Shown in pieces: positions 4,575 through 16,913 of a stretch of DNA of 24,000 bases (positions are counted from its first letter, which is position 1; the number at the start of each line of letters is the position of its first letter). The notes under the pieces are model-generated. The model saw only the letters and a list, made by a program, of their open reading frames with translations. It was not told where the DNA came from and did not search any database. Position numbers and translations under genes: made by a program. Location: positions 10,655 to 34,654 of the forward strand of contig CAYGYN010000044.1 in NCBI GenBank assembly GCA_964354195.1. The letters are read 5' to 3'. The stretch comes from Candidatus Woesearchaeota archaeon (GTDB taxonomy: Archaea; Nanobdellota; Nanobdellia; Pacearchaeales; GW2011-AR1).

Positions 4575-7500
4575 TTAGTTCTTCTTCACCGCCCTCGAGT
4601 AAATTGTCCAGACATTTCTCTGGTCTCTGTCAACAAGTTCTGCAATCTCGCTGAATTTCATTCCTCTTCCCTTAAGATAGACTATTACCGCTTCAAGCAC
4701 AGTGTACTTTCTGTCTCCAAGTATCGAAGAAGGTATGAATATCTCTGTCTTTCCAACATATATCTTCTCCTTTCTCTTCTCCTGTGCTTTGTGGCAGGCT
4801 GTCCAGATTGTCCTCTCATTCCTGTTCAATGCAAGTGCAATCTCATGATAGCTCATTCCAAGATTCTCCTTCATGTACTTGCAAAGAGTTTCGAGAGCTC
4901 CAATTTCTTTGGAGAATATTGTAACTGGAATATTCATTCTTTCTGATTCACTAATCTCTTGAGTTTCTCTCTCAGAAATATCTCTTATAGCTTCCTCAAG
5001 CACCCCAACTTTTTCCAACTCATTTCTCTTTCTCAAATCAGCTTTTATCTTCAGCAGGCCCTCAACCAGGTTCTTTCTGCGTTTCTTCTTCCTATTTCTC
5101 CCACCTGCAAGAGCAAATCCAACAATAAGTATCTTGATTGTCCACGAGCCTTCATTCGCTGTTGAGTATGCCTGCCCGATGAGCTCGCTTCCCGCTTTCC
5201 TTATGCAGAAATAAAGTTGTTCCTGTCCTGTGCTCCCGTCATTGACTGTAAAGTTCCCGCGGGGCAAAAATGCGTCTGTTATGCTTACATAAGCAGAGGG
5301 AGATAATGTTGTTGCTCCGCATTCAGCATTTCCTCCAGTCGCAATTCCAACAGAAAAGTTATTTGCAAACAATGCAAGAAGACTATTGCTCTCTCCATTC
5401 AGGTTCGTTGAGTTTATCTGTATATTTCCAAGAGAGATATTCTGGTTTCCAGTGTTATTCAGGACAATAGGATCATTTGTTGCCGTCTGGTTCACAGCTC
5501 CAGGTGTCAATGAACTAAACGCAAGAGCGCTTGGCGAAGCCACAAATCCAGTAAGCGCATTAACAGTAAAGTAAGTTGAGATGTTTGTAGCCGCAGAACT
5601 GCTCAAGTCCGACACAGAAGCAGTTACATTCCATGCTCCTGCTCCATCAAACCAATACATTTGCACATTACAACTGTAATTGACATAATTTCCAATAGTG
5701 TTAATCTTCGCACAACTCAGATTAGTTCTAAGAGCCTCTCCATCTCTTGTAAAATTAGCCATTGCAGAAGAATCATTCAAATCCGCAGCACCATCGGCAT
5801 CATAAGCTGTGAAATTAACATTAACAGTCGTTGACGCGGGTCCTTCATTCAAATCCACAGCAGGAATTGCGCTCACATAGGTTATCTGAGGAGCTTGATT
5901 AACTGCTCCGAGGTTCACTTTTATAGTCCAGTTATCATTCGCAAATGCAGAATAGCTCTCGTTGTCTCTCGCTTCGCAATTCCAGAGATAAGTTCCATTA
6001 GCAATTCCATTCAATGGGAAAGATGCGCTCATTGATGAATTCGAAGAAAGAGAATTAGTATACATATTCACAATTTCCTGCTCACTTAATGCCCTGTTGA
6101 ATATTGCAACTTCATCTATTGCTCCCGAGAAAGGTCTTCTGCTTGTGCTTGACGTAGAAATAGGCCATATTCTTCCGTTTCCAACAACAAGAGGCAATGT
6201 AGACTGCAATATTGGTCCGCTGAAAGGATTATTTACCGGGAAGTTGGCGCCTGCTCCGTCCTGACTCCCATTCACATAAATAGACACAGTTGTTCCATTA
6301 TATCTCCCGACAACAAAAATCCACTGTCCCTCAGGGAATGTGCCGTTATAATTTGATTCTACCGCGCTGCCTGAAGAATTCCACACCCTGAAGAAAACAG
6401 AAGGTCTTGAACGGTCCACTGCAAGATAATAGCTTGATGAAGAAGCTGAAACAGCAATCTTGTCAAGAATTCTTGCATTTGCGTTATATGTATTGTTAAA
6501 GTTGTTTGCACTCGGCTTTATCCAGGCAGTCACTGTTATTGAACTGCCCATATTGCTCAAAGCAGGATTATCATTTGCATAAAGCGCATTTGGACTGCCA
6601 AAAATATATGCATTTGTTCCCGGGAAAACCCCTGTCTGATTCATTACAGGGCAGAATGACGACGATTCGTTTGAATTGCAATAAACATGATTGCCCAAGC
6701 CGGAAGAATCTGCATAATACGTCAAGTTCTCCCCCAAAAGAGAGTCATTGTTCATATGCAGCCAGAATACCATTGACGAATCATATGAATACTCGCCAGC
6801 ATATGCTATTCTTGTAAGATTCCAAACCCCGCTTGTATTTGTATAAAGGCTTATGTTAGACATTCTATTGACAGTTGTTGCATTGCACTGGAAAGTTATG
6901 TTGCCTGTTGTGCTTGTAGTGCCATTTGGAGGCGAAAGAAGACTTGTCCATATTTGTAAAGGGATAATTGTAAGATTATTCGAGCTCAATGTGCTTCCAT
7001 CCTGATACCCATCATTTGGCGTGACTTGGCAGCTCCAAATATCCCACAAAAATAGCTCGCTGCTGACAATAGTGTTTGTTTTATTTCGGTAAATAGTTCC
7101 AATCTCCTGCGAGGAGAGAGTATAATTAAATATAAGCACGTCATCTATCTCTCCATTGAAGAAATTATTCCAAGGCTGATGCCAGCCTATTCTTGTTCCA
7201 TTTAATCCAGTCAGTGGTGAACCGTTATAACTTCCTATCGCGGCAATACCATTAGAAGCATCAATTCCATCAACATAAATCCTAAAATTAGAAGAAGTTA
7301 CTGCCTGTCCTGATGTTGAATTGAAAACTCCAACTATGAAATGCCAGTTTCCATCATTCACAGTTCTGTTGGCATTAAGCCCTATCCATATTGCATCGGA
7401 ATCCAAGCCTATTGCAGGCACACCTGCTGAAGAATTTGTGCAATAGCTTCCTGGCACACTATTACAAAGAGGACCAATAGCCAAAGTTAAGCTCTTTCCA

Positions 7501-10500
7501 AGCCCGCTTCCCCTGTCATTGATTATAACTCCCTGATTTGCAGATGTCTTGACCCAAGCCGCCAAAGTATATTGCGTGGTTGAATTCTGAACAAAAGGAG
7601 AGATTATTGAACTATTTACCCCGTTGAACTTGTAATCTCCCTTCCCATCATATCCTCCTGTTGAGTTCCAGACAGCCCTGGAAACAACACCATTGTTCCC
7701 AAGCGAATAATCTTTTGTCCAAGTTGAAGTGCTTCCGCCCTCAAACGGCATATTAAGAACAATTATTGATTGGTTATTTAAGTACCAATTATAAATATTC
7801 TTCACTGAATCATTCTCCAAATCAGAAGTGCTTTGATTATAACATGTTAGATTCTCATTTACAGTATTAGTCCCGTAAGTCGAGCTCAAAATCGGTGGAG
7901 TTTGTGTTGGAGGGAAGTTTGGCGCAAGAGCATTGTAAGTTACATTGAAATAAAAGACATCCCAATAAGCAGTGCCTGTTCCAAATGCAGAGCCCCTAAG
8001 CTCTGATTTCATCTGGCTTCTGTTTCCTGAAGCGCCAAAGAAGTTTGAGCATTGCCAGTTCTTCAGAGCAGTCACATTTCGGCAGATTACCCCTGGATTT
8101 GCTGTTATTCCAGGGCAGGTGGAGTTGATTACTGTAAAATTAGTCCCGTTTTGATTGTCAATTGAAATATTGCAGTCAGAAGTTGAAGAAGTTGAAGCCC
8201 ACCATTCAAAGCAGGCAAGCACTTGTGTTATGTTTGAGCAGTTTGTATTTGTTGAATTGAATTCCATTATCTTCACTCCCCCATAACCTCCATTGTTGTA
8301 TCTCTGTGTCTCATAGAACCCATCATTGCATGTCAGCAAGTCAGCCCCTGAACCGCACGCGCTCGGATAAACGCCATCACAGGCAGAGCCGAACGAACCC
8401 TTGGCAGCCCTTTCCTCGGCAACACAGCTGCTCGTTCCCTCTCTAAATCCAGGGTCAGTTGTATTCATGGTGAAATTATAAGTTCCATCTGCAAGCAATG
8501 CGGCATAGGGTGTCCAAATCTCGTCAACGCATGTGCTTGTCGTAAAATTCCAGTTTATGCACTTCTCAAGGATTCTGAAACCTTCTGTTTCCTCGGGCAG
8601 AGACGTGCCATCCGCAACGATAGTAAAGTCAGTGTTATTGATTCGGGGATATACGGAGAATGAGAAATTCTGGGATGCATTTGCCTGGGAAATATCTATA
8701 ATGCTAGTTATGTTTGAGCTTAAATTAAACCCAAGAATATCAATTGTGTTGATAGTGTGATTAACAGGAGCGACATATATGTCATATATGCCTGTTGCAA
8801 GATTGACAGTGTGATTTATCATTGTCTGATTATAAACAACACTTGAAGTTATGTTTGTTATCCTGAGTGTTGCATTTATCCCATTATTCAGAGGGTCATT
8901 GATGGTTATTGTAAAAGTTACATTTTGTATAGGCGCCTGAGTCCCATTTCCAATTGTCAGGTTGTTTGAATTCTTTGTAATTCCGTCATTCTTCCCGTCA
9001 TTCGGAGTTACAGAACATGTCCAGTTCTGCCCTATAGAAAGTTCCTGGCTGACAATTAAATCTGTTCTGCTACTATACAATGCTTGAATTTGCTGTGCTG
9101 ATAAAGTTTTATTATAAATTCTTATGTCATCAATGCTTCCTGTAAATTTTTGTCCTGTCTGGTACTTGTCTCCAATACCCAGCCCATTTGTGTCATCATA
9201 CGTTCCGATTGGTCCATTAAGTGTTGAATTGCCAACTTCCACCCCATTGATATACAATCTCGCTATTGAGCCGTCATAAGTTCCTGCTGCAAAATACCAT
9301 GTATTATCATTGATTGTTTCTGAATTAACACGAGCTGCATCACTAGCATTAGTTACCTTAAATCTGATTATGTTGGTTGTCCCATTAAATTCAAAACCAT
9401 AAACCCCATATGGAGATATATCATTATTTCCATACCATACTATCTTGGCATAAGAGTTTTGGGTGCCGTTTCTTTTAAACCACGCTGCAATAGTTAGATT
9501 ATAAGTTGGTTCTAGATTATCAGAGCTGCCAACAGTTATAAGGTTAGTAATGCCATCAAAACGATAAGCTCCCTTTCCATTATATCCTCCTGTTGAATTC
9601 CATACAGCTCCTGAAACATTTCCATTGTTGCTTAACCCTGAATAATCCTTTGTGTAAGTTGAATTGCTTCCTCCCTCAAAAGGCATGTTCAAAACTTCAT
9701 AAGCCCTGTTATTCAATTTCCAACTGAAAATGTTCTTCACAGAATCCCCGTCAGCGTCATAGGTTGATTTATTGTAGCAAGTCAGGTTCTCACTTGTCAA
9801 ATTAGTCCCAAAAGTTGAATTCAAAATTGGCGTGCTTTGAGTGGGCAGGGTATTTGCGCAGTTATAAGTATATTCTGTGATATTCCCGAAAACAAATTGA
9901 AGAGTGTGATTGCCTCCAGTCAGAACCTTGCTTGTTTCATATCCGCTCTGATTGTCGCAAGTATAATTGAAATAGTGCACGCTGTTAGTTTCGTTAAGCC
10001 ATGTGTAATTCATGGTAGTATTCCCGCACCTTAACTCAAGGAACTGCAAGTCCCCTGACTCATTAAGATACCATGTTGTTCCATTCGATGCAGTTATTGT
10101 AAGATTTGCCTGTCCTGTTGTGTTAAATCCAACTGTCCAGTTTCCATCCACATATGGATAGCTGTAAAGATTGAGTATTATGAGCTGAAGTTCATATGTC
10201 TGGTTTGAGAGATGTTCAACATTCCACTCAATGTAATCAATCAAGCCATTCTCATTCATGTCAGCTGTTGTGAAATTAACGCTCTCTTTTGTTTCATTAA
10301 CCAGATGATAAAGTCTTATCATATCTGGAGAGGCTTCATAAGGCAGTTCACTAAAAGCAGTTATATCTGTATAGTTTAATTCATCAGGGGCTGAGATAGT
10401 TATAATTTTTCCGCTGCTTGTCTCTTCTTCAAAAGCCTCAGGCGCAGGAGTTTCGTAAGAAATCTCATACTGAGTTGCGTTATCCTCAAGACTGACTTCA

Positions 10501-11930
10501 ACAGGCTGCAAAGATTCATTTTGCTCCTCAGAAATAACTCTTCCTGTGAATCCTCTGCCAAATATGCCTTTTATGAAATCCCATAATCTGCTTATAATTC
10601 CATTTCCTTCGTTATCAGAAACAGCTAATCCTGTCACAAAAGCTCTTGCCTGCTCAGGCTTCTCAGTTTGTTCATCAATCTTGTTGACAGAGACATTCTC
10701 AGCCAAAGGCGGAAGCTCGATTGTTATTTCAGCAGGATTTTCGAGTTCAACAACCTTCTTCCATTTGACAGGCTGTCCCACTCTTATTTTCCCGACCTTT
10801 GAAGTGGTTATTGAGACATTTGTCTCGTTTGTTGTAATGTTCTCGGCAAGAGTCACATTCTCGGAGATAGTTAAATCTTCAAGAGGAACAAAAGGAATCA
10901 AGCCATATTCCAATCCAGTTAGTTTTAATCTTGCATTGTCAAGCTCAATCCTCAGGTTATAGAACTCTTTTGTGAGGTTTAATCCAGCCAAGTCGCAGGT
11001 TTCTTCACATATGCTATTAAACTCTCTCAGAGTTATTTCCTGAGTTGTTTCTTCCACAGAGGTTTTATTTTCTTCTGTTATATTTTCAGAAACAGGAGGA
11101 GTCACCTGCTGGGAAATGCTCTCGTTTTGAGGTGTTCCTCCTCCTGTTTGCTCTGAAGATGAAGGTTCTGAGGGCGTAGTTTCTGTAGTTGTTTCTTCTT
11201 CTGTTGGAATCGTTGGTTCTTGTTCTGATGGGGTTCCAGTTGGAGTTTCTGTAGTTGTTTCACTAGGTGTCTCAGTTGGAGTTTCACTTGGACTTTCTTG
11301 GGAGGATTCAGTTGAATCGGAGGAGGACGAATCTGAAGAAGAATCGGAATCGCCGGATGAATCTGATGATGAATCTGAAGAATCAGAGCTTGAATCAGAA
11401 TCAGATGATGAATCAGAAGAACCAGAATCTCCTTCCAATGCAAAACCAGTTATTGTGGTTCTTCTTTTTGCAATATTTGTGCTGTCAACCACAAGCAAAT
11501 TATCAAGATAAATCTTTATCTCTCCGTCTCCTGCAATCAATCCAGACAACTTGACAAAATCAAGTGTCCCATTTTCCTTAAGCGTGAATTCATAGCTCCC
11601 CGAATTATTGAAAACAACATCTGGAGTTTCAAAATAAGTCTTTGCATTTTCCTTTACCACAAACAAATTGAAGCTGGGACTGAAAAAGAAAAAGCTTGCT
11701 ATAAGAATTAAAAAAACCCCTATAAAACCAAAGCGAATCATAGTCTTCTTGTGCTTCTCATATTCCTCAAGAATTATCTGCTGCTGCCAGAGCCTGTGCC
11801 TATTTTCTTCTATCTGCTGTTTATGATAATCAGCAAGCGCCTGGTCTGGGTCATTAATGTATTTCCTAGAATCTTCTATTCTTCTTGAAAGTTCTTCGAT
11901 TAAAACTCTCGCTACGCGAGCATTTCCCAT
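4575..11930 (-). CDS. Giant (2,451 aa) two-pass surface protein: N-terminal cytoplasmic helix, TM, LamG-rich glycoprotein ectodomain, TM, cytoplasmic tandem-HTH tail
   Basis: A single uninterrupted 7,356-nt ORF. TTTATAAG lies 30 nt upstream of the ATG. Domain evidence is listed in the sub-features below. Confidence 0.9.
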   Translation of the reverse strand: MGNARVARVLIEELSRRIEDSRKYINDPDQALADYHKQQIEENRHRLWQQQIILEEYEKHKKTMIRFGFIGVFLILIASFFFFSPSFNLFVVKENAKTYFETPDVVFNNSGSYEFTLKENGTLDFVKLSGLIAGDGEIKIYLDNLLVVDSTNIAKRRTTITGFALEGDSGSSDSSSDSDSSSDSSDSSSDSSGDSDSSSDSSSSDSTESSQESPSETPTETPSETTTETPTGTPSEQEPTIPTEEETTTETTPSEPSSSEQTGGGTPQNESISQQVTPPVSENITEENKTSVEETTQEITLREFNSICEETCDLAGLNLTKEFYNLRIELDNARLKLTGLEYGLIPFVPLEDLTISENVTLAENITTNETNVSITTSKVGKIRVGQPVKWKKVVELENPAEITIELPPLAENVSVNKIDEQTEKPEQARAFVTGLAVSDNEGNGIISRLWDFIKGIFGRGFTGRVISEEQNESLQPVEVSLEDNATQYEISYETPAPEAFEEETSSGKIITISAPDELNYTDITAFSELPYEASPDMIRLYHLVNETKESVNFTTADMNENGLIDYIEWNVEHLSNQTYELQLIILNLYSYPYVDGNWTVGFNTTGQANLTITASNGTTWYLNESGDLQFLELRCGNTTMNYTWLNETNSVHYFNYTCDNQSGYETSKVLTGGNHTLQFVFGNITEYTYNCANTLPTQSTPILNSTFGTNLTSENLTCYNKSTYDADGDSVKNIFSWKLNNRAYEVLNMPFEGGSNSTYTKDYSGLSNNGNVSGAVWNSTGGYNGKGAYRFDGITNLITVGSSDNLEPTYNLTIAAWFKRNGTQNSYAKIVWYGNNDISPYGVYGFEFNGTTNIIRFKVTNASDAARVNSETINDNTWYFAAGTYDGSIARLYINGVEVGNSTLNGPIGTYDDTNGLGIGDKYQTGQKFTGSIDDIRIYNKTLSAQQIQALYSSRTDLIVSQELSIGQNWTCSVTPNDGKNDGITKNSNNLTIGNGTQAPIQNVTFTITINDPLNNGINATLRITNITSSVVYNQTMINHTVNLATGIYDIYVAPVNHTINTIDILGFNLSSNITSIIDISQANASQNFSFSVYPRINNTDFTIVADGTSLPEETEGFRILEKCINWNFTTSTCVDEIWTPYAALLADGTYNFTMNTTDPGFREGTSSCVAEERAAKGSFGSACDGVYPSACGSGADLLTCNDGFYETQRYNNGGYGGVKIMEFNSTNTNCSNITQVLACFEWWASTSSTSDCNISIDNQNGTNFTVINSTCPGITANPGVICRNVTALKNWQCSNFFGASGNRSQMKSELRGSAFGTGTAYWDVFYFNVTYNALAPNFPPTQTPPILSSTYGTNTVNENLTCYNQSTSDLENDSVKNIYNWYLNNQSIIVLNMPFEGGSTSTWTKDYSLGNNGVVSRAVWNSTGGYDGKGDYKFNGVNSSIISPFVQNSTTQYTLAAWVKTSANQGVIINDRGSGLGKSLTLAIGPLCNSVPGSYCTNSSAGVPAIGLDSDAIWIGLNANRTVNDGNWHFIVGVFNSTSGQAVTSSNFRIYVDGIDASNGIAAIGSYNGSPLTGLNGTRIGWHQPWNNFFNGEIDDVLIFNYTLSSQEIGTIYRNKTNTIVSSELFLWDIWSCQVTPNDGYQDGSTLSSNNLTIIPLQIWTSLLSPPNGTTSTTGNITFQCNATTVNRMSNISLYTNTSGVWNLTRIAYAGEYSYDSSMVFWLHMNNDSLLGENLTYYADSSGLGNHVYCNSNESSSFCPVMNQTGVFPGTNAYIFGSPNALYANDNPALSNMGSSITVTAWIKPSANNFNNTYNANARILDKIAVSASSSSYYLAVDRSRPSVFFRVWNSSGSAVESNYNGTFPEGQWIFVVGRYNGTTVSIYVNGSQDGAGANFPVNNPFSGPILQSTLPLVVGNGRIWPISTSSTSRRPFSGAIDEVAIFNRALSEQEIVNMYTNSLSSNSSMSASFPLNGIANGTYLWNCEARDNESYSAFANDNWTIKVNLGAVNQAPQITYVSAIPAVDLNEGPASTTVNVNFTAYDADGAADLNDSSAMANFTRDGEALRTNLSCAKINTIGNYVNYSCNVQMYWFDGAGAWNVTASVSDLSSSAATNISTYFTVNALTGFVASPSALAFSSLTPGAVNQTATNDPIVLNNTGNQNISLGNIQINSTNLNGESNSLLALFANNFSVGIATGGNAECGATTLSPSAYVSITDAFLPRGNFTVNDGSTGQEQLYFCIRKAGSELIGQAYSTANEGSWTIKILIVGFALAGGRNRKKKRRKNLVEGLLKIKADLRKRNELEKVGVLEEAIRDISERETQEISESERMNIPVTIFSKEIGALETLCKYMKENLGMSYHEIALALNRNERTIWTACHKAQEKRKEKIYVGKTEIFIPSSILGDRKYTVLEAVIVYLKGRGMKFSEIAELVDRDQRNVWTIYSRAVKKN
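4578..5099 (-). other. Cytoplasmic C-terminal tail of the giant protein (res 2278-2451) with two tandem sigma-70 region 4 / LuxR-like HTH repeats
   Basis: The tail starts with the stop-transfer cluster RNRKKKRRK and a charged helix. Repeat A (nt 4767-4898): ALETLCKYMKENLGMSYHEIALALNRNERTIWTACHKAQEKRKE. Repeat B (nt 4578-4706): YTVLEAVIVYLKGRGMKFSEIAELVDRDQRNVWTIYSRAVKKN. Both fit the pattern (hydrophobic)x(Y/F)xEIAxxLxRxxRT/NVWTxxxxA. There are no N-X-S/T sequons in the tail. Confidence 0.6.
5100..5150 (-). other. Second transmembrane segment of the giant protein (GSWTIKILIVGFALAGG)
   Basis: Short hydrophobic stretch immediately followed by nine basic residues in ten (RNRKKKRRKN). Coordinates were checked codon by codon against the reverse complement. 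Confidence 0.6.
5139..5894 (-). repeat. Membrane-proximal 252-aa two-domain module of the giant protein (res 2013-2264), paralogous to 14263-15036
   Basis: APQITYVSAIPAVDLNEGPASTTVNVNF...PRGNFTVNDGSTGQEQLYFCIRKAGSELIGQAYS...WTIKI aligns end to end with residues 54-311 of the 311-aa protein, ~60% aa identity by eye. Identical nucleotide runs include GTTGTTGCTCCGCATTCA and ATTCTGGTTTCCAGTGTT. Confidence 0.85.
5907..6947 (-). other. LamG (concanavalin-A-like lectin, Laminin_G_3-type) module 3, nested in a split beta-sandwich
   Basis: Res 1662-2008. Flank SPPNGTTSTTGNITFQCNA...; core SSITVTAWIKP...GQWIFVVGRYNGTTVSIYVNG...FSGAIDEVAIFNRALSEQEIVNMY; closing strand GTYLWNCEARDNESYSAFANDNWTIKV. Confidence 0.7.
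6966..7913 (-). other. LamG module 2 nested in a split beta-sandwich
   Basis: Res 1340-1655. PPTQTPPILSSTYGTNTVNENLTCYNQSTSDLENDSVKNIYNWYL...LNMPFEGGS...YTLAAWVK...GNWHFIVGVF...FNGEIDDVLIFNYTLSSQEIGTIY...WSCQVTPNDGYQDGSTLSSNNLTI. Confidence 0.75.
8031..8573 (-). other. Cys-rich central domain of the giant protein (12 Cys in ~180 aa)
   Basis: Res ~1120-1300. Cys at 1124, 1134, 1169, 1184, 1192, 1201, 1231, 1240, 1253, 1272, 1283 and 1294 by my indexing. No family recognised. Confidence 0.5.
8961..9848 (-). other. LamG module 1 nested in a split beta-sandwich
   Basis: Res 695-990. LPTQSTPILNSTFGTNLTSENLTCYNKSTYDADGDSVKNIFSWKL...LNMPFEGGS...AYRFDG...LTIAAWFK...NTWYFAAGTYDGSIARLYINGVEVG...FTGSIDDIRIYNKTLSAQQIQALY...WTCSVTPNDGKNDGITKNSNNLTI. 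The first ~100 aa are ~65% identical to module 2 by eye. Confidence 0.8.
11145..11429 (-). repeat. Low-complexity acidic linker: Ser/Asp repeats (res 168-207) then Thr/Glu/Pro repeats (res 208-262)
   Basis: GDSGSSDSSSDSDSSSDSSDSSSDSSGDSDSSSDSSSSD followed by ESPSETPTETPSETTTETPTGTPSEQEPTIPTEEETTTETTPSEP. The DNA is an imperfect GAATC(N)GA(N) tri/hexanucleotide repeat. Alternative-frame ORFs here are artefacts. Confidence 0.85.
11673..11738 (-). other. First transmembrane segment of the giant protein (IRFGFIGVFLILIASFFFFSPS)
   Basis: Res 65-86. It is preceded by a 64-aa charged helical segment ending in KHKKTM (positive-inside rule), and no A-x-A cleavage site follows. Confidence 0.65.
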
Positions 11931-11991
11931 ACTTATCTTGTATGTAAATATACTTATAAATCTATTGGTAATACCTATTATTTATGTAATA
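11928..11991 (-). repeat. Promoter-plus-start-codon repeat copy R1 (functional promoter of the giant gene)
   Basis: CATACTTATCTTGTATGTAAATATACTTATAAATCTATTGGTAATACCTATTATTTATGTAATA. It contains the ATG (11930-11928) and the TATA (11953-11960). About 85% identical to R2, which lies 95 bp upstream. Confidence 0.8.
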
Positions 11992-12022
11992 ATATGAGAT
12001 AGGCTATTTGCCAATTAACATC

Positions 12023-12087
12023 CATACCTATCTTGTATGTAAAAGCCCTTTATAAATTTATTGATAATACCTATTATTTATGTAATA
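12023..12087 (-). repeat. Promoter-plus-start-codon repeat copy R2 (duplicated promoter driving a 15-codon micro-ORF)
   Basis: CATACCTATCTTGTATGTAAAAGCCCTTTATAAATTTATTGATAATACCTATTATTTATGTAATA. It has TTTATAAA at 12049-12056 and an ATG at 12025-12023. That ATG opens MDVNWQIAYLILLHK* (12025..11978). Confidence 0.8.
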
Positions 12088-12141
12088 GCCATGCAAAGAG
12101 TTATTTAACAGTTAGATAGCACAAAACACTAAAAATCGAAA

Positions 12142-13656
12142 TCACTGCTCAAATTTTTCAAGATATTCAGAAGCCTTGCCATCCACAACCATTACTTCCT
12201 TTATTGAATGCACATTGCTGTGCCTCACAAGCGCGTTCTTTTTGTTCAAGTTCTTCGCAATGTGCGGCTCAAGCGCAATCAGCCAGCCATATATCTTGTT
12301 ATCCTCAAGATAAACTTCACTCACATGCCCTAGTTTGTTCCCATTCATCCCATATACCCGCAAATTCATTGCATCTGTGAGCCCATTCAGTTTTCCCTTG
12401 TGCTTTCTCTTCGCTCCAGCCCCAATAACTCCTCTCTCAAGCAGAGGAATCAGATATCTCACCAGAACAATTGAAATAAGACTAGCAAGCAATGCAATCA
12501 CAAGCATTATCCAGAACAAGTCTATCCAGTTTATTGCAAATACAGTTGTTACAGGGGCAGGCTTTTCCTCCTGTACTTCATCAACATCGCACCTGCCATT
12601 CTGATTTGCATCAAGACAGCATTCTAATCCTCGGGGTATGTAAGGAGAACTGCAGCTTGCGCACGCAATGATTCCTGTCTCGCCTTCACTCTGATTAATG
12701 CATTCAATTATCTGAGGCTGGGAATAATTTGTCTGATAAACTACCCTGGTGCCTCCGCCTCCACCGCCGCCAACAGTCACTATCACAACAGGTTCAGGCG
12801 ATTCATCAGCAGAATAATTCGAAAATCCAGTTACTCTGAATCTTAAATTTCCGGATGAATAATCTTCTTTGGTGCAAATGCTATCTGGGCAAACAACGCC
12901 ATTCCTCAATATTCTTGGATTTGTGAAATTCAATCCATAAAGCCATAATGTTGAAGAAACATTGAAATTAGGCAGCTCGTCAGCATTTAATTCAATCCTA
13001 TTGAATAATATATTCACATTGTTCTCAACGTCAACCACTCCGTCAAAATTATGGTCCTTATCATCAGTCACATTCAAACAATCGTCAAACTCTATTTTTC
13101 CATAATTAACATCTTCAAGAATAGTGTTGCAGAAATTCTGCAAATCTTCAAATGTATATGTATAGAAATCTGTTGAGCCTCCGCTGAAAGATGTCTTGAA
13201 TTCCCCCAGGTAGATAATTCTCAACAGCGTTGTATTGACAACAAACTGCAATCCCTCGCTAGTCTGCCCCTGGCTGTTGTTTGCATAAACCCTGATAATA
13301 TGGGTTCCATCTCCAGCAGTGAAATGAAGAGAATGGGGTATATTTGGGATATAGGTGTCTGCTGAGCCATCAAGAACATACCACGCATCATAAGCGCTGT
13401 AAACACTATAATTCAAAAGCAAACTTTCATTTATGTAAGTTCCGTTCTTAGGGGAATAGATAATTACCCCTGGAAGGCTTACAACATAAACCCTCAAATC
13501 AACAGGCTGTTCTGTCGCCTCACCTGTAACCGAAACGCTGCCAGTTATGCCTGCGCGCGAGCCATTCTCAACAACCAATATTGCAGATGCATAAGAACTG
13601 GAAATAATTAAAAAAACAATTGCTAAAAACAGCGATAAAATCAAATACCTCTTCAT
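12142..13656 (-). CDS. Type-I surface glycoprotein with C-terminal TM helix and cytoplasmic PRC-barrel domain
   Basis: Start refined to the ATG at 13656 (MKRYLILSLFLAIVFLIISSSYASA signal). The ORF-track start is a TTG 4 codons upstream, and an ATTTAAAT box lies 30 nt upstream of the ATG. The ectodomain is sequon-rich with a Gly7 linker and a Cys cluster (CINQ...CASCSS...CCLDANQNGRCD). TM helix LFWIMLVIALLASLISIVLVRYLIPLL (12439-12519). The 98-aa tail LNGLTDAMNLRVYGMNGNKLGHVSEVYLEDNKIYGWLIALEP...VMVVDG (12181-12390) fits the PRC-barrel pattern. Confidence 0.85.
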   Translation of the reverse strand: MKRYLILSLFLAIVFLIISSSYASAILVVENGSRAGITGSVSVTGEATEQPVDLRVYVVSLPGVIIYSPKNGTYINESLLLNYSVYSAYDAWYVLDGSADTYIPNIPHSLHFTAGDGTHIIRVYANNSQGQTSEGLQFVVNTTLLRIIYLGEFKTSFSGGSTDFYTYTFEDLQNFCNTILEDVNYGKIEFDDCLNVTDDKDHNFDGVVDVENNVNILFNRIELNADELPNFNVSSTLWLYGLNFTNPRILRNGVVCPDSICTKEDYSSGNLRFRVTGFSNYSADESPEPVVIVTVGGGGGGGTRVVYQTNYSQPQIIECINQSEGETGIIACASCSSPYIPRGLECCLDANQNGRCDVDEVQEEKPAPVTTVFAINWIDLFWIMLVIALLASLISIVLVRYLIPLLERGVIGAGAKRKHKGKLNGLTDAMNLRVYGMNGNKLGHVSEVYLEDNKIYGWLIALEPHIAKNLNKKNALVRHSNVHSIKEVMVVDGKASEYLEKFEQ

Positions 13657-13679
13657 AAAAATATCCAAGCAACTATATT

Positions 13680-13687
13680 ATTTAAAT
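13680..13687 (-). promoter_or_regulatory. TATA-like box (ATTTAAAT) for the 13656 CDS, possibly an internal promoter
   Basis: Lies 30 nt upstream of the ATG at 13656, in the 44-nt gap after the upstream gene. Confidence 0.4.
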
Positions 13688-13700
13688 CTATATTCGAGAG

Positions 13701-14258
13701 TTAATTTTGTTCCTGCTTCTTTCTCTTGTTCAATGCCACAACGATTATTGCCATGACAAGAATTGCAGCTCCGACAACAAGATATAATGTCCAGTTTGTC
13801 TTTTCAACAGGAATCACTGACTCTTCTTCATTGACCACAAAAACAGGCAGTCTTGTCGAGATGCTGCTGCCTATTCCTACAGCACCGCCAGTCAATCCGC
13901 TCTGCACTGTCTTGAAAGTAAACTCAACAGGATAATTTCCACCTATCTTGCTATCGCTCGGCACGCTGATTCTCACATTCATTGCAGCTTCTCCGCCCGC
14001 AGGCACATTATAAGCCTTGTTTTCATCAGTTATCGTCGTAACATCCGAGCCCTGAGAGACTTCAGCATCCAAAACAACAGGATCCACTCCCGCATTGTTC
14101 TTCAGCACAATCTGCAAATCAACTGTTTGTCCAGGTGCAATCCTCAATGGATTCTCAGACCAATAAGGCGTTGAGACTGCAAATGCATAAACTCCATTTA
14201 TCATTAAGATAGTCACAACTAACAATATTCCCGCTGCGATATAGTTTTTAGTTTTCAT
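13701..14258 (-). CDS. Small type-I surface protein: signal peptide, single Ig-like (CARDB/DUF11-like) domain, C-terminal TM anchor
   Basis: Signal peptide YIAAGILLVVTILMINGVYAFA. Beta-rich domain (PGQTVDLQIVLKNNAG...YNVPAGGEAAMNVRISVPSDSKIGGNYPVEFTF). Anchor WTLYLVVGAAILVMAIIVVAL followed by NKRKKQEQN. The ATG lies 1 nt after the upstream stop, indicating an operon. Confidence 0.8.
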   Translation of the reverse strand: MKTKNYIAAGILLVVTILMINGVYAFAVSTPYWSENPLRIAPGQTVDLQIVLKNNAGVDPVVLDAEVSQGSDVTTITDENKAYNVPAGGEAAMNVRISVPSDSKIGGNYPVEFTFKTVQSGLTGGAVGIGSSISTRLPVFVVNEEESVIPVEKTNWTLYLVVGAAILVMAIIVVALNKRKKQEQN

Positions 14259-14259
14259 T

Positions 14260-15195
14260 TTATGATATCTTCAACGTCCATGCTCTAGAGGCTGAGTCTG
14301 ATGAATATGCCTGTGCTGTAAGTTCAGAACCAACTTTCTTTATGCAGAAGTATACTTGCTCCTGCCCCGTTGAGCCGTCATTGACTGTGAAATTCCCTCT
14401 TGGTAAAGTCGCGCTGCCTATCGCAGTGTATACTGAAGGAGCCATGGTTGTTGCTCCGCATTCAACAGGAGGAGAACCCCCAGTAGTTACGCCAACACTG
14501 AAGTTATTGGAATAGATTTTTCTATTGGCATCTAACTCTCCAAGAAGGTCAGTGGTATTCAACTGAACATTTCCTGCTGTAATATTCTGGTTTCCAGTGT
14601 TGTTTAATACAATTGGATCATTTGTAGAAGTCTGATTCACGCTTCCAGGAGTTAACGATGCCCATGTCAGAGAAGCCGGCGAAGATACAAATCCAGTAAG
14701 CGCATTAATTGTGAATGTAGTAGAAACATTTGAAGCAGCAGAATTGCTTAAGTCCTTCACAAATACAGTCACATTCCAGGTTCCTGAGCCATCAAACCAG
14801 TACATAGGCACGCTGCAAGTGTAATTAACTGTAGTCGCAGTACTGCCCGCATTGGTGCATGAAACAGCCCTTACAACTTCTCCAGCCCTTGTAAAGTTAA
14901 CCATCGCAGAACTATCATTCAAATTCCCTGCCCCGTCAGCATCACTTGCCACGAAGCTCATAACTACTGTAGTGCTTGTAGGCCCTTCATTCAAATTCAC
15001 CGCGCTTATAGCAGAAACAGAAGCAATTGTTGGAGCAGTGTTTGATATTGTGACATTAACATTTACGCTTTGCTGTGTTACTTTCCCAGTTATCTTTCCA
15101 AACCAGTCAAACATCCCGGCAGACGCAAATGACGAGACTAATAATACAGAAGCTAGAACCACAACAAAAACAAGCGTTCCTCTTTTCGCATTCAT
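14260..15195 (-). CDS. Secreted two-domain protein, paralog of the giant protein's membrane-proximal module (no anchor)
   Basis: Signal peptide MNAKRGTLVFVVVLASVLLVSSFASAG. Residues 54-311 align with giant-protein residues 2013-2264. The protein ends (WTLKIS*) exactly where the giant protein enters its TM helix. TTTATAAA lies 29 nt upstream of the ATG. Confidence 0.85.
   Translation of the reverse strand: MNAKRGTLVFVVVLASVLLVSSFASAGMFDWFGKITGKVTQQSVNVNVTISNTAPTIASVSAISAVNLNEGPTSTTVVMSFVASDADGAGNLNDSSAMVNFTRAGEVVRAVSCTNAGSTATTVNYTCSVPMYWFDGSGTWNVTVFVKDLSNSAASNVSTTFTINALTGFVSSPASLTWASLTPGSVNQTSTNDPIVLNNTGNQNITAGNVQLNTTDLLGELDANRKIYSNNFSVGVTTGGSPPVECGATTMAPSVYTAIGSATLPRGNFTVNDGSTGQEQVYFCIKKVGSELTAQAYSSDSASRAWTLKIS
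14263..15036 (-). repeat. Paralogous copy of the 5139-5894 module
   Basis: See 5139-5894. Same orientation, ~9.1 kb away, with nucleotide similarity clearly visible by eye. Confidence 0.85.
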
Positions 15196-15216
15196 CAGAT
15201 AGTAAGCTGTAATTCA

Positions 15217-15224
15217 TTTATAAA
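15217..15224 (-). promoter_or_regulatory. TATA box (TTTATAAA) for the 15195 operon
   Basis: 29 nt upstream of the ATG at 15195. Confidence 0.5.
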
Positions 15225-15467
15225 CATTTCTCTGATACTATATAGGTTTTGATTTGCTCTCTTTTATTTGCTCTTTACTATTAATTCTGACTCGCTCTTG
15301 TCTTGAAGCTTCTCATCTGCGTTAAATACTATTAATTCGGATTCACCTTCACTGCGGGCTCCATTTAAAGGAAGATGACGTGTCAAGAAACCTTGGTTTT
15401 GAACCATCAGCAGATGCAATAGAAGGAGGGGTGACATATCAGGGGAACTATGAGTTCCCTTATATAA

Positions 15468-15539
15468 TGGCTCTACGAGGAATTGAACCTCGATTATCCG
15501 GTCCGAAGCCGAAGGGTCTATCCATTAACCTATAGAGCC
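15468..15539 (-). tRNA. tRNA-Arg (anticodon TCG)
   Basis: The reverse complement folds as a 72-nt cloverleaf. Acceptor GGCTCTA/TAGAGCC plus discriminator A. D stem GGTT/GACC. Anticodon stem TTCGG/CCGGA with loop CT-TCG-GA. T arm CGAGG-TTCAATT-CCTCG. No encoded CCA and no intron. Confidence 0.9.
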
Positions 15540-15582
15540 AAAACTATTAAATAACTGGCTTTTTTAATACTATTTATAAGAG

Positions 15583-16701
15583 ATGAGCAAGACATTCACA
15601 GCTTTGATGGTTTTGATGGGCACAATCATAGGCGCAGGCATCCTCGGCATTCCTTATGTTGTCTCCCAGTCGGGATTTCCAATAGGTATCATGCATATTG
15701 TTTTCCTTGGGGCGTTAATGGCACTAATAATGCTCTATCTCGGAGAAGTAATTTTAAGAACGAAAGGCAATCACCAGCTCTCAGGATATGCTGAAAAATA
15801 TCTTGGGAAACGCGGTAAGTTGTTGATGTTTATTGCTTTCGCAGCAGGAATTTATTCTGCAATATTGGCATACCTGATTGCAGAAGGCAAATCCCTGAGT
15901 TACCTGATATTCAATTCCCCAGTCCATCAATTCGAGCTTGGAATAATATTCTGGATTTTTCTCTCTGCAATAACCTATTTTGGCATAAAAGCTCTTGAGG
16001 AAGGCGACACAGTTGGAGTAATTGTTGTTTTCATAATGATAATCTCAATCTCAGTCTATTTCTCGAGCAAAATAAACATAACAAATCTGACATCTATTTT
16101 CTCAAGCAATCTATTTGTTCCGTTCGGAGTTGTTCTTTTTGCATTCCTCGGTTTCTCTGCAATTCCTGAGATTAAGCGCATTCTCAACAAAGAGCAAAAA
16201 CCCTTGCGAGGAATAATAATAACAGCTTATCTGCTGACAGCATTGATTTATCTAATCTTTGCCGCAGTTGTTCTCGGTTTCATGGGCAATAAGACTCCAG
16301 AAGTTGCAACTATTGCTCTTGGAAAACCTTTCATAGTGCTTGGGATGATAACAATGTTCACAGCTTATCTCTCTCTTTCCGTTGCAATGATAGACAGCTA
16401 TCGTTTTGACTTCAAGAAATCAAAGCGCATTTCATGGTTCTTGACAATAATAATCCCGCTGATTCTATTTATTATTCTAACATTAACAAACAACGCAACC
16501 TTCACTCAAGTCCTGAGCATTGGCGGAATAGTTTCAGGAGGCTTGACAGCAGTCATTATCTTGTTCATGGCAGAAAAGGCAAAGAGAGTTGGGAGAATCA
16601 AGCCTTATTATTCAATTCCCTATTCCCAAGTGTTGAAATGGTTTATCATTGCAATCTTTGTTCTTGCAGCAATACTCGAAATCAAGAATATTATTCTCTA
16701 A
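15583..16701 (+). CDS. Amino-acid permease (APC superfamily, Trp/Tyr-permease / AAAP-like)
   Basis: 372 aa with ~11 hydrophobic helices. The N-terminal signature FTALMVLMGTIIGAGILGIPYVVSQSGF is typical of this transporter family. Confidence 0.8.
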   Translation: MSKTFTALMVLMGTIIGAGILGIPYVVSQSGFPIGIMHIVFLGALMALIMLYLGEVILRTKGNHQLSGYAEKYLGKRGKLLMFIAFAAGIYSAILAYLIAEGKSLSYLIFNSPVHQFELGIIFWIFLSAITYFGIKALEEGDTVGVIVVFIMIISISVYFSSKINITNLTSIFSSNLFVPFGVVLFAFLGFSAIPEIKRILNKEQKPLRGIIITAYLLTALIYLIFAAVVLGFMGNKTPEVATIALGKPFIVLGMITMFTAYLSLSVAMIDSYRFDFKKSKRISWFLTIIIPLILFIILTLTNNATFTQVLSIGGIVSGGLTAVIILFMAEKAKRVGRIKPYYSIPYSQVLKWFIIAIFVLAAILEIKNIIL

Positions 16702-16913
16702 CCTCTCTCAAAAGGCTTTCTCTCAACAGTAAATTGTTTCAATGTCAGATAACAGGTTTCATAGTTCCTGCATTTCTCGCAAAAATCCGTATTAATTCTG
16801 TTCTGCCCATAAAAGCACGATAAAATCATCCCAGGCTCCATGCCTTTCTCAGTTTCAGCTCTCTGCACCTGCTCCTCCAAAGCAGCCTTAATCTTTTCCC
16901 TGTCTATTTCCAT
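16698..16913 (-). CDS. Small hypothetical Cys-containing protein (71 aa)
   Basis: ATATAAG box 29 nt upstream of the ATG at 16913. Cys pattern CFYG...CEKCRNYETC. Lies 60 nt downstream of gatB. Its 3' end overlaps the convergent permease stop by 4 nt. Confidence 0.45.
   Translation of the reverse strand: MEIDREKIKAALEEQVQRAETEKGMEPGMILSCFYGQNRINTDFCEKCRNYETCYLTLKQFTVERKPFERG

What the first reader, a model, noticed from the sequence alone, without database searches (positions are those of the whole stretch)
12142..13656. Second surface protein in the cluster also has a cytoplasmic effector-type domain: a PRC barrel behind a TM helix
The protein has a signal peptide and a ~370-aa sequon-rich ectodomain with a Gly7 hinge and a 9-Cys knot. 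A 27-aa TM helix follows, then a 98-aa tail. The tail core (LRVYGMNGNKLGHVSEVYLEDNKIYGWLIALEP...IKEVMVVDG) matches the PRC-barrel signature (V.d..G.klG.V.dv..d....i..lvv). PRC barrels are small cytoplasmic beta-barrel interaction modules, found in the RC-H subunit and RimM. Stand-alone archaeal PRC-barrel proteins have been linked to the cell-division machinery. I do not recognise a PRC barrel fused to the inside end of a glycosylated surface protein. It sits directly upstream of a giant protein with a cytoplasmic HTH tail, so two adjacent genes each connect the cell surface to an intracellular module. This suggests a trans-envelope signalling or anchoring apparatus rather than plain adhesins.
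Basis: partly seen in the sequence, partly recalled or inferred. Interest (0 to 1): 0.7.

Follow-up and report, generated by a model that had tools for sequence, protein, structure and literature searches.

The report
Surface protein with cytoplasmic PRC-barrel tail
A surface glycoprotein of a tiny (DPANN) archaeon ends inside the cell in a small PRC-barrel domain related to archaeal cell-division scaffold proteins, and the same membrane-spanning tail cassette is attached to more than a hundred unrelated surface proteins in these archaea, which suggests a shared way of fastening surface proteins to an internal scaffold.

Summary
Window 12142..13656 (-) encodes a 504-aa type I membrane protein. 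It has a signal peptide, a sequon-rich ectodomain, a Gly7 hinge, a Cys-rich juxtamembrane module, one TM helix and a 98-aa tail. The tail is a genuine PRC barrel. It passes Pfam PF05239 (26.5 bits; gathering score 21.2), as do all 6 orthologous tails. A family profile matches A. fulgidus CdpB1/CdpB2 structures (E 6.6e-16). The AF2 tail model (pLDDT 86.5) hits 8onw/8qzo, reaction-centre H subunits, MTH1859 and CdvA.

A full-sensitivity search shows the block "Cys knot + TM + basic linker + PRC barrel" is a modular C-terminal cassette. It occurs in 125 of 148 non-orthologous representatives, with ectodomains from under 40 to about 2,900 aa. The named carriers come from Pacearchaeota, Woesearchaeota and Nanoarchaeota MAGs. 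Charge bias and sequon distribution place the barrel in the cytoplasm.

The four-gene cluster is conserved, but most relatives of this gene lack the PRC tail. The giant neighbour's cytoplasmic parts do not co-vary with the tail.

Best reading (inferred): the tail is a membrane-proximal self-association or docking module that ties surface proteins to a CdpB/SepF-like scaffold. It is not a signalling output. I found no description of this architecture in the literature I could search.

The parts
12142..13656 (-). Gene for the 504-aa type I surface protein with a cytoplasmic PRC-barrel tail (stop codon included)
   Evidence: ORF list and translation. An identical protein, P0001, and full-length orthologs P0002-P0006 at 70-41% identity exist.
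13679..13686 (-). TATA-box-like element TTTAAATA, about 23-30 nt upstream of the ATG
   Evidence: Read directly from the sequence. TTTAAATA or TTTATATA is at the same spacing in L001, L003, L005 and L006; in L004 it lies further from the called GTG start, which is probably miscalled. This is a consensus match only. That it means an own promoter with a short or absent leader is inference.
13582..13656 (-). Signal peptide (about aa 1-25, ending SSSYASA)
   Evidence: Hydropathy peak over residues 1-31 and an A-x-A motif. Conserved in the orthologs.
12772..13581 (-). N-terminal ectodomain module (aa 26-295). It is sequon-rich and specific to the gene family of this cluster.
   Evidence: Shared at 38-50% identity with about 45 relatives that lack the PRC tail. 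AF2 predicts an Ig-like beta-sandwich at about aa 63-140 with pLDDT 60-79. No Pfam, NCBIfam or PDB homolog was found.
12751..12771 (-). Gly7 hinge (aa 296-302). It marks the junction between the family-specific half and the region leading into the cassette.
   Evidence: Homology to the non-PRC relatives ends at this point.
12577..12702 (-). Juxtamembrane Cys-rich module (aa 319-360). The core motif CSSPYIPRGLECCLDANQNGRCDVDE (335-360) is the start of the shared cassette.
   Evidence: C335, C346, C347 and C356 are invariant in the orthologs. The motif PY..G.ECCLD.N.N..CD.DE occurs in 35 other cassette carriers just outside their TM helix. BLASTP cassette alignments begin at residue 335.
12442..12540 (-). 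Single transmembrane helix (about aa 373-405)
   Evidence: Kyte-Doolittle 19-residue window values reach 2.92. AF2 predicts a helix at 377-409 with pLDDT about 80.
12367..12441 (-). Basic juxtamembrane linker (aa 406-430, including KRKHKGK)
   Evidence: 6 K/R in the 24 aa after the TM helix against 1 in the 15 aa before it. In 125 carriers the means are 5.27 and 1.9, with after > before in 112 and the reverse in 6.
12172..12366 (-). PRC-barrel domain (aa 431-495)
   Evidence: Pfam PF05239. PDB profile hits to A. fulgidus CdpB1/CdpB2. AF2 tail model with pLDDT of at least 93 over residues 21-80 of the tail. Foldseek hits to 8onw, 8qzo, RC-H subunits, 1pm3, 9s9g and 3htr.
12145..12171 (-). C-terminal helix after the barrel (about aa 496-504, part of ASEYLEKFEQ); the S-E-x-L-E motif is conserved across carriers
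   Evidence: The AF2 tail model predicts a helix at tail residues 87-94. The A3 consensus reads ...DxKxSExLE.... The free-standing 92-aa relative P0132 carries the same motif. Its role is unknown.
13701..14258 (-). Cluster neighbour: 185-aa protein with a signal peptide, an Ig-like domain, and a C-terminal TM helix followed by a basic end
   Evidence: Weak NPCBM_assoc match, E 8.4e-4, below the gathering score. The gene holds this position in all related loci.
14260..15195 (-). Cluster neighbour: 311-aa secreted protein, a paralog of the giant's membrane-proximal segment
   Evidence: 62% identity over 269 aa to giant residues 2002-2267, E 1e-107. The gene holds this position in related loci.
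4575..11930 (-). Cluster neighbour: 2,451-aa giant surface protein with a cytoplasmic N-terminal helix plus TM helix, three Laminin_G_3 stretches, a C-terminal TM helix and a double-HTH tail

Best explanation
Shown. The gene encodes a type I single-pass surface glycoprotein. It is a chimera. Residues 26-295 belong to a gene family specific to a conserved four-gene surface cluster of Pacearchaeota-like DPANN archaea. Residues 335-504 are a widespread mobile C-terminal cassette made of a disulfide-rich juxtamembrane module, a TM helix, a basic linker and a PRC barrel. The cassette places a CdpB-like PRC barrel in the cytoplasm, with a median of about 28 residues between the end of the TM helix and the barrel core.

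Inferred. The barrel works as it does in the archaeal PRC proteins with solved structures, namely as a protein-protein self-association or docking module at the inner face of the membrane. By pairing with other PRC barrels, it would tie the ectodomain to a sub-membrane scaffold that may be linked to SepF/FtsZ. Candidate partners are other cassette-bearing surface proteins, minimal TM+PRC proteins and free-standing CdpB-like proteins. Such a tie could fix, cluster or position surface proteins and resist pulling forces on them. On this reading it is a generic anchoring cassette, not a signalling output specific to this cluster.
For: Domain identity:
- Pfam PRC passes its threshold for the tail and for all 6 orthologous tails.
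- The 46-sequence tail profile hits 8qzo_A at E 6.6e-16 and 8onw_A at 3.3e-12.
- The AF2 tail model has pLDDT 86.5.
- Foldseek's top hits are the A. fulgidus CdpB1:CdpB2 complexes (TM-score 0.71-0.78 normalised to the 8onw chains). Next come RC-H subunits, MTH1859 and the CdvA filament.

Topology:
- Positive-inside bias holds in the window protein and in 112 of 125 carriers.
- Sequons run at 4.62 per 100 aa outside and 0.35 inside.
- Cys runs at 1.13 per 100 aa outside and 0.33 inside.

Modularity:
- 125 of 148 non-orthologous representatives have a TM helix plus a C-terminal PRC barrel. Their ectodomains range from under 40 to about 2,900 aa.
- The ectodomains differ: Laminin_G_3, coiled-coil, CarboxypepD_reg-like, or nothing recognisable.
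- BLASTP similarity to P0064 and P0082 is confined to residues 335-504.
- The Cys motif is shared by 35 carriers.
- 14 further loci from DPANN MAGs and metagenomes each carry one such gene; most are large and several are cut by a contig end.

Mechanistic precedent:
- CdpB1 binds SepF, and CdpB1/B2 form homo- and heterodimers that chain into membrane-proximal filaments (10.1101/2023.03.28.534543).
- CdpB1/2/3 localise to the division ring (10.1101/2023.03.28.534520).
- The best-conserved tail segments (G..VY...G..IGKV.EVYLE..KIYGWLIK) correspond by my inspection to the strand hairpin that forms the CdpB dimer interface.
- Free-standing relatives exist that could serve as partners, namely P0058/P0059 from Nanopusillaceae and P0132.
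Against: - No interaction was tested. I had no multimer prediction, and no SepF, FtsZ or free PRC gene lies in the window or in any of the 22 loci examined.
- The PRC tail is dispensable for the cluster. Most family members have only a short basic or coiled-coil tail. One ortholog (P0007, L005) has lost the barrel.
- The conserved strands are the general PRC signature, so their conservation does not prove that the dimer interface is retained.
- How many carriers a single genome has is unknown.
- The tail is no more conserved than the ectodomain among orthologs.
Confidence: 0.5

Rival explanations
1. Address label rather than anchor. The PRC tail binds SepF or CdpB only to deliver or retain the protein at the division site or another defined membrane zone, for example so that new surface material is inserted at midcell. 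It bears no mechanical load and does not polymerise.
For: The tail profile is much closer to one of the two A. fulgidus paralogs (8onw_A/D, E about 3e-12) than to the other (8onw_H, E 0.076). The closer one is the first domain of the 8qzo chain. If that domain is CdpB1, which is my inference from the entry titles, it is the paralog that binds SepF directly. CdpB proteins localise to midcell.
Against: Nothing here distinguishes targeting from anchoring. The cassette sits on very diverse proteins, including giants of 2,000-3,000 aa that look like adhesins. It is hard to see why all of these should go to the division site. Which 8onw chain is CdpB1 was not verified.
Confidence: 0.2
2. The PRC-tail protein and the adjacent giant with its HTH tail form a dedicated trans-envelope signalling apparatus, in which the PRC barrel contacts the giant's cytoplasmic N-terminal helix or HTH tail.
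For: The two genes are adjacent in all five relatives with enough contig. Both proteins have cytoplasmic modules. A 19-nt motif repeated upstream of the giant is conserved in distant orthologous loci, which suggests the giant is regulated.
Against: The same cluster type exists with a PRC-less version of this gene in most relatives. The giant's N-terminal helix and double-HTH tail are conserved in both cases, so they do not co-vary with the PRC tail. The cassette occurs on more than 100 unrelated proteins outside this cluster, with varied neighbours. PRC barrels have no known catalytic or signalling activity. One ortholog lost the barrel but kept the cluster.
Confidence: 0.1
3. Docking like the reaction-centre H subunit. 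As in RC-H, where a TM helix is followed by a cytoplasmic PRC barrel that caps the L/M subunits, the barrel sits on the cytoplasmic face of a polytopic membrane protein or complex and stabilises a membrane assembly.
For: RC-H subunits are strong structural matches (E 4e-4 to 2e-3, rmsd 1.5-2.5 A over 65-75 columns). They share the order 'TM helix then cytoplasmic barrel'. 23 of 148 representatives are minimal N-terminal TM + PRC proteins with the RC-H-like layout.
Against: The sequence profile is far closer to CdpB (E 6.6e-16) than to any RC-H, none of which reached E 1 in the PDB sequence search. Pfam found only PRC in the protein and no RC-H-specific N-terminal domain. No recurring polytopic partner gene lies next to the carriers.
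Confidence: 0.1
4. A biogenesis or translation-linked role. By analogy with RimM, whose PRC barrel binds ribosomal protein uS19, the tail engages ribosomes or RNA-processing factors, for instance during co-translational insertion of very long secreted proteins.
For: Archaeal PRC genes often neighbour translation and RNA-processing genes (10.1101/2023.03.28.534520). An NrnA-like DHH/DHHA1 gene lies about 8 kb away in the window.
Against: The tail is the last part of the protein to be synthesised, so it cannot assist co-translational export of the ectodomain. The closest relatives by sequence and structure are CdpB proteins, not RimM. The DHH gene is not adjacent.
Confidence: 0.05

Closest known systems
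CdpB1/CdpB2 (archaeal cell-division PRC-barrel proteins; A. fulgidus structures 8onw and 8qzo)
   Same: They are the closest relatives by both sequence profile (E 6.6e-16) and fold (Foldseek top hits). Both are archaeal and both act at the cytoplasmic face of the membrane. The short helix and strand that precede the barrel in CdpB also seem to be present in the tail model.
   Different: CdpB proteins are free-standing soluble proteins of about 76-97 aa. They reach the membrane indirectly through SepF. Here the barrel is covalently tethered behind a TM helix at the end of a glycosylated surface protein. Binding to SepF and filament formation are untested.
Photosynthetic reaction-centre H subunit (RC-H)
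   Same: The order is the same: a single TM helix followed by a cytoplasmic PRC barrel. It is a strong structural match.
   Different: In RC-H the TM helix is N-terminal with almost no external part, and the barrel caps the L/M subunits of a photosystem. Here the TM helix follows a 370-aa ectodomain, the organism is a DPANN archaeon, and the sequence is much closer to CdpB.
CdvA (Sulfolobus ESCRT-based division; 9s9g)
   Same: [quoted passage not shown] It is a structural match.
   Different: CdvA is cytoplasmic, with a coiled-coil domain and an ESCRT-III-binding peptide. It has no TM helix and no ectodomain.
YlmC/YmxH and MTH1859 (small stand-alone PRC-barrel proteins)
   Same: Same fold. JGI's automatic name for the cassette carriers is 'sporulation protein YlmC with PRC-barrel domain'. 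1pm3 is a structural hit.
   Different: These are stand-alone proteins of 80-100 aa, and the automatic name carries no functional information. The sequence match to 1pm3 is weak (E 0.14).
Shared C-terminal anchoring modules of prokaryotic surface proteins (LPXTG/sortase, PGF-CTERM/archaeosortase) and integrin-type cytoplasmic tails
   Same: The logic is the same: one C-terminal module shared by many unrelated ectodomains. Like integrin tails, it is a folded or dockable cytoplasmic end on a single-pass surface receptor. This is an analogy from general knowledge.
   Different: No sorting-enzyme signal is present, and the weak Gram_pos_anchor hit belongs to the 185-aa neighbour, not this protein. 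The module here is a folded cytoplasmic domain, not a cleaved sorting signal. There is no homology to integrins.

Membership tests
PRC-barrel domain (Pfam PF05239) | Match to the family profile above the curated gathering score | tested here: met
   22.8 bits for the whole protein and 26.5 bits for the tail, against a gathering score of 21.2. 6 of 6 orthologous tails match. 9 of 10 other cassette carriers match.
PRC-barrel domain (Pfam PF05239) | The PRC fold: a small, strongly bent, mostly antiparallel beta-sheet barrel | tested here: met
   The AF2 tail model (pLDDT 86.5) has six strands and short helices. All top-50 Foldseek PDB hits are PRC-barrel proteins at probability 1.00. This rests on a predicted structure, not a solved one.
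CdpB-type archaeal division PRC proteins | Closest sequence and structure relationship among characterised PRC proteins | tested here: met
   Sequence profile: 8qzo_A at E 6.6e-16 and 8onw_A at E 3.3e-12. Foldseek ranks 1-9 are 8onw and 8qzo chains.
CdpB-type archaeal division PRC proteins | Small, free-standing soluble protein of about 76-97 aa | tested here: not met
   The barrel is residues 431-495 of a 504-aa protein, behind a TM helix. It should therefore not be filed as a CdpB ortholog.
CdpB-type archaeal division PRC proteins | Direct binding to SepF and/or localisation to the division ring | not testable with these tools
   This needs pull-downs, size-exclusion chromatography or microscopy. 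No sepF or ftsZ gene is in the window or the loci examined.
CdpB-type archaeal division PRC proteins | Homo- or heterodimerisation through the beta3-beta4 hairpin, and filament formation | not tested
   No multimer prediction was available. All I can say is that the corresponding strands are the best-conserved part of the tail family.
Reaction-centre H subunit (PRCH + PRC) | RC-H-specific N-terminal domain and a phototrophic reaction-centre context | tested here: not met
   Pfam finds only PRC in the protein. The window carries archaeal housekeeping genes (GatD, GatE, deoxyhypusine synthase, TrmB) and no photosynthesis genes.
Type I single-pass surface glycoprotein (N-out, C-in) | Signal peptide, one TM helix near the C-terminus, positive-inside charge bias, and glycosylation sequons and Cys confined to the N-terminal side | tested here: met
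   This rests on hydropathy and composition analysis only; no dedicated topology predictor or experiment was used.
Trans-envelope signalling proteins (membrane-tethered regulators, anti-sigma-like) | A recognisable cytoplasmic output domain (DNA-binding, enzymatic or sigma-binding) in this protein | tested here: not met
   The PRC barrel is the only domain found in the tail. The HTH units belong to the neighbouring giant, not to this protein.

The most novel reading that the evidence does not exclude
In Pacearchaeota, Woesearchaeota and Nanoarchaeota-type DPANN archaea, dozens of different surface proteins, including 2,000-3,000-aa putative adhesins, are physically wired through a shared TM+PRC cassette to a CdpB/SepF-type sub-membrane polymer. 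That would make it an archaeal counterpart of integrin-to-cytoskeleton coupling. It could organise the host-contact surface, transmit force, or couple surface-protein placement to the division machinery in episymbiotic cells.
Probability: 0.25. Interest if true: 0.85.

Novelty: new variant of a known kind. Interest (0 to 1): 0.62.

Why it matters
PRC-barrel proteins were only recently recognised as core parts of archaeal cell division, through CdpB1/2/3 and CdvA. How the archaeal envelope is connected to the cytoplasmic division and cytoskeletal machinery remains largely open.

This finding shows a large family in which a CdpB-like barrel is covalently attached to the inner end of surface glycoproteins. 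That gives a concrete, testable candidate for such a connection. It occurs in the archaea whose lifestyle depends most on their surface, the DPANN episymbionts with giant putative adhesins.

It also gives a practical handle. The cassette (Cys motif, TM helix, basic linker, PRC barrel) can serve as a search signature to list the surface proteome of uncultivated DPANN genomes. The tail is small enough for direct biochemistry with SepF and free PRC proteins.

If the tail turns out to be only a passive stop-transfer decoration, the finding reduces to a domain-architecture note.

Tried and rejected
- Full-length AF2 with 8 sequences gave a poor model (pLDDT 47). Only the TM helix, the tail and one Ig-like domain were usable, so I did not fold-search it.
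- A word-indexed homolog search with the tail profile returned only 4 proteins. The full HMMER scan was needed to see the cassette family.
A narrower alignment, A4, worked but used restrictive peptide patterns. It gave only 4 genome loci and 10 metagenome loci, so genome-level counts of carriers could not be obtained.
- I looked for a second PRC gene or a recurring partner near the cassette genes. None turned up in the window or in 22 loci.
- The ectodomain could not be identified. Pfam, NCBIfam and a 46-sequence profile against PDB sequences gave nothing credible; the best was Nup116 at E 0.011, which I treat as chance.
- The 185-aa and 311-aa neighbours have no solved homologs.
- I tried to name the source assembly of the window through P0001. 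It carries no name and no contig record.
- Literature searches for this architecture (PRC barrel with DPANN lineages, surface protein, transmembrane or cytoplasmic tail) found nothing relevant. The search covers only the held open-access library.
- I rejected the idea that the tail is extracellular.
- I rejected the idea that the Pfam hit is a chance match.
- I rejected the idea that the PRC tail is integral to the four-gene cluster.
Full report
**1. The observation**

The minus-strand ORF at 12142..13668 exists. It matches the MKR/MKK starts of the orthologs, so the protein is 504 aa.

My own hydropathy and composition analysis found the following features.
- An N-terminal hydrophobic segment ending SSSYASA, which looks like a signal peptide.
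- 12 N-x-S/T sequons, all between residues 31 and 321.
- A run of seven glycines at 296-302.
- 10 cysteines, all before the TM segment. Six of them (319, 332, 335, 346, 347, 356) cluster just outside the membrane.
- A strong hydrophobic segment at about 373-405.
- A 98-aa tail that opens with KRKHKGK. There are 6 K/R in the 24 residues after the TM helix and 1 in the 15 before it.

**2. Is the tail a PRC barrel?**

Yes. Several independent tests agree.
- Pfam PF05239 scores 22.8 bits (E 9.1e-5) on the whole protein and 26.5 bits (E 6.7e-6) on the tail alone. The gathering score is 21.2.
- All six orthologous tails match PRC individually, best E 3.3e-7.
- A profile of the six tails hits the PDB sequences 8qzo_A (E 3e-7) and 8onw (E about 1e-4).
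- A 46-sequence profile raises this to 6.6e-16 and 3.3e-12.
- AF2 on the tail with that alignment gives pLDDT 86.5 and pTM 0.72. It predicts six strands and short helices.
- Foldseek against the PDB returns only PRC barrels. First come the A. fulgidus CdpB1:CdpB2 complexes 8onw and 8qzo (E 2e-5 to 4e-4, TM-score 0.71-0.78 on the 8onw chains). These are followed by reaction-centre H subunits, MTH1859 (1pm3), the S. islandicus CdvA filament (9s9g) and 3htr.

The tail profile is much closer to one 8onw chain type (A/D) than to the other (H, E 0.076). The closer type is the first domain of the 182-aa 8qzo chain. I infer that this is CdpB1, but I could not verify it.

**3. Relatives and synteny**

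The protein has an identical database copy (P0001) and full-length orthologs at 70, 52, 43, 41 and 43% identity (P0002-P0006). P0007 is an ortholog whose gene stops just as the barrel begins. No PRC remnant is encoded downstream in L005, so this is a natural loss.

About 45 further relatives share only the N-terminal ~290 aa up to the glycine hinge. Those with names come from Pacearchaeota and Nanoarchaeia MAGs. After the hinge they carry about 250 aa of a different ectodomain, a TM helix and a short basic or coiled-coil tail.

In every relative with enough contig, the order is a ~310-aa gene, a ~170-185-aa gene, this gene, then a giant gene. The PRC-less relatives P0025 and P0028 sit in the same cluster type, with the giant placed before the other three genes rather than after them. 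The cluster is therefore widespread, and the PRC tail is a lineage-specific variant of one of its components.

The window belongs to an archaeon. It carries GatD, GatE, deoxyhypusine synthase, TrmB and a cis-prenyltransferase.

**4. The key new result: a modular cassette**

I ran a full HMMER scan of 1.84 billion cluster representatives with the tail profile. It found 305 proteins at E <= 1e-3 and 75 at E <= 1e-10. I analysed the 148 listed non-orthologs.

| Architecture | Count |
|---|---|
| TM helix then PRC barrel at the extreme C-terminus | 125 |
| of these, external part > 1,000 aa (proteins up to 3,037 aa) | 27 |
| of these, external part 301-1,000 aa | 45 |
| of these, external part 41-300 aa | 30 |
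| of these, minimal N-terminal TM + PRC | 23 |
| No TM helix (free-standing proteins or fragments) | 22 |
| Other | 1 |

Further statistics on the 125 carriers:
- K+R averages 5.27 in the 15 residues after the TM helix and 1.9 before it. After exceeds before in 112 proteins and the reverse holds in 6.
- Sequons run at 4.62 per 100 aa outside and 0.35 in the tails.
- Cys runs at 1.13 per 100 aa outside and 0.33 in the tails.
- The barrel core begins a median of 28 residues (IQR 21-46) after the TM helix.

The ectodomains are unrelated to one another. They include Laminin_G_3, coiled-coil and CarboxypepD_reg-like regions, or nothing recognisable. Nine of ten carriers tested pass Pfam PRC.

The carriers that have names are "Candidatus Pacearchaeota archaeon" or "Nanoarchaeota archaeon". 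They are auto-annotated as "PRC-barrel domain-containing protein" or "sporulation protein YlmC with PRC-barrel domain".

BLASTP of the window protein against P0064 (528 aa) and P0082 (2,847 aa) aligns only residues 335-504 (E 2e-30 and 8e-22). The juxtamembrane Cys motif PY..G.ECCLD.N.N..CD.DE is present in 35 carriers. The mobile unit is therefore Cys module + TM helix + basic linker + PRC barrel. The window protein is a chimera of the cluster-specific N-terminal half and this cassette.

Fourteen additional loci each hold one such gene. They come from Pacearchaeota, Woesearchaeota and Nanoarchaeota MAGs and from metagenomes. Most of the genes are very large, and several are cut by a contig end. 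Their neighbours are varied housekeeping genes with no recurring partner.

**5. Mechanism**

What is shown is a type I topology with a CdpB-like PRC barrel held close to the inner membrane face, on a cassette shared by many surface proteins.

What is inferred rests on published work.
- CdpB1 binds the FtsZ membrane anchor SepF. CdpB1/B2 form homo- and heterodimers that chain into membrane-proximal filaments (10.1101/2023.03.28.534543).
- CdpB1/2/3 are ring components in Haloferax (10.1101/2023.03.28.534520).
- In CdvA filaments the PRC domains make the lateral cross-strand contacts (PMC12818579).

In every structurally characterised archaeal case the PRC barrel is a self-association or docking module of a membrane-associated scaffold. 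The most economical reading is that the cassette tethers surface proteins to such a scaffold or to one another. Free-standing relatives that could be partners exist (P0058/P0059, P0132). I put about 0.5 on this reading.

The rivals are:
- targeting only, to the division site (0.2);
- RC-H-like docking onto a polytopic partner (0.1);
- a translation or biogenesis role (0.05).

**6.

The giant has a cytoplasmic N-terminal helix (MGNxRxA..L[IV]EEL...) followed by a TM helix. At the other end it has a C-terminal TM helix followed by two Sigma70_r4-like HTH units. These parts are conserved in clusters with the PRC tail (window, L002) and without it (L007, L008). Their presence is therefore independent of the PRC tail. 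That argues against a dedicated PRC-giant interaction but does not exclude it.

**7. Comparison and novelty**

[quoted passage not shown] It should not be filed as a CdpB ortholog, because the free-standing architecture is not met and SepF binding is untestable here. It resembles RC-H only in the order "TM helix then barrel".

The two 2023 surveys of archaeal PRC proteins that I read mention fused forms such as CdvA. They do not mention transmembrane or surface-protein fusions; "transmembrane" occurs zero times in both. Three further full-text searches found nothing on this architecture. Automated annotation does already flag the domain.

I therefore rate it a new variant of a known kind. I set interest at about 0.62, because it offers a concrete and testable link between the archaeal surface and the division or cytoskeletal machinery in DPANN archaea.

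**8. Limits**

- There is no dedicated topology predictor, no multimer modelling and no whole-genome census behind these conclusions.
- The organism of the window could not be named.
- The carrier statistics use a simple hydropathy threshold of my own.
- The tail profile includes the basic juxtamembrane residues, which favours tethered forms in the hit ranking.

Noticed in passing
window 14260-15195 (-) versus 4575-11930 (-), giant residues 2002-2267: The 311-aa secreted protein is 62% identical over 269 aa (E 1e-107) to the giant's membrane-proximal ectodomain segment. The match ends exactly where the giant's C-terminal TM helix begins (WTLKI / WTIKI). It is a free copy of the giant's 'base' domain, which suggests the two co-assemble.
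   Followed up: partly
window 11929-12085 (-), in the spacer upstream of the giant gene: The 19-nt motif TTACATAMAWRATARGTAT occurs four times here and nowhere else in the window (0.01 expected by chance). It lies inside a tandem duplication of about 96 bp, and the last copy overlaps the giant's ATG. Two copies are conserved upstream of the giant gene in L001/L002 (the 70%-identity relative) and in L004 (the 43%-identity relative). It could be an operator, possibly for the giant's own HTH tail.
   Followed up: partly
window 12577-12654 (-), protein residues 335-360: The Cys-rich motif contains D349-A-N-Q-N-G-R-C-D-V-D-E360. This fits an EF-hand / thrombospondin-type-3-like Ca-binding loop consensus (DxNxNGxxDxxE). 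The motif is conserved in 35 other cassette carriers. Ca binding is inferred from the pattern alone.
   Followed up: no
window 4575-5300 (-), the giant's C-terminal tail; L007 1789-8388; L008 1-6499: The giant's cytoplasmic double-HTH tail (…MSYHEIA..LNR.ERTIWT… and …FSEIA.L.DRDQRN.WTIYSRA.KK) is highly conserved across distant clusters, while the ectodomains diverge completely. The L008 giant appears to have the HTH pair duplicated and carries a faint intein-like Pfam hit.
   Followed up: partly
L005 5082-6386 (P0007): This ortholog ends at ...QLSYVGR, just as the PRC barrel should begin. The 135-nt spacer before the giant gene encodes no remnant of it. The barrel has been lost naturally while the cluster was kept.
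   Followed up: yes
L020 4463-15003, compared with window 4575-18353: The flank is the same (amino-acid permease, GatE-like and GatD-like genes). In place of the four-gene cluster, however, there is a single 1,931-aa cassette-bearing giant. The locus next to the permease may be a hotspot where surface genes are exchanged.
   Followed up: no
window 13679-13686 (-); L001, L003, L005, L006 upstream of the orthologs: A TATA-box-like TTTAAATA or TTTATATA lies about 23-30 nt before the ATG in the window and in L001, L003, L005 and L006. This implies an own promoter and a very short or absent leader rather than obligatory co-transcription with the upstream genes.
   Followed up: partly
window 12145-12171 (-), protein residues about 496-504: A short helix follows the barrel, and its S-E-x-L-E-K motif is conserved across cassette carriers and in the free-standing 92-aa relative P0132. 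Its role is unknown; it might be a partner-binding peptide.
   Followed up: no
P0008 (396 aa): This relative has the N-terminal module, the Cys motif and the TM helix but no PRC barrel. It is labelled 'Candidatus Woesebacteria bacterium', which is a CPR bacterium. It is probably a mis-binned archaeal contig.
   Followed up: no
window 21980-23047 (-) and 21288-21980 (-): An NrnA-like DHH/DHHA1 gene and a cis-prenyltransferase lie about 8 kb from the PRC-tail gene. In haloarchaea cdpB1 is adjacent to nrnA (10.1101/2023.03.28.534520). Here the distance makes a functional link unlikely.
   Followed up: no
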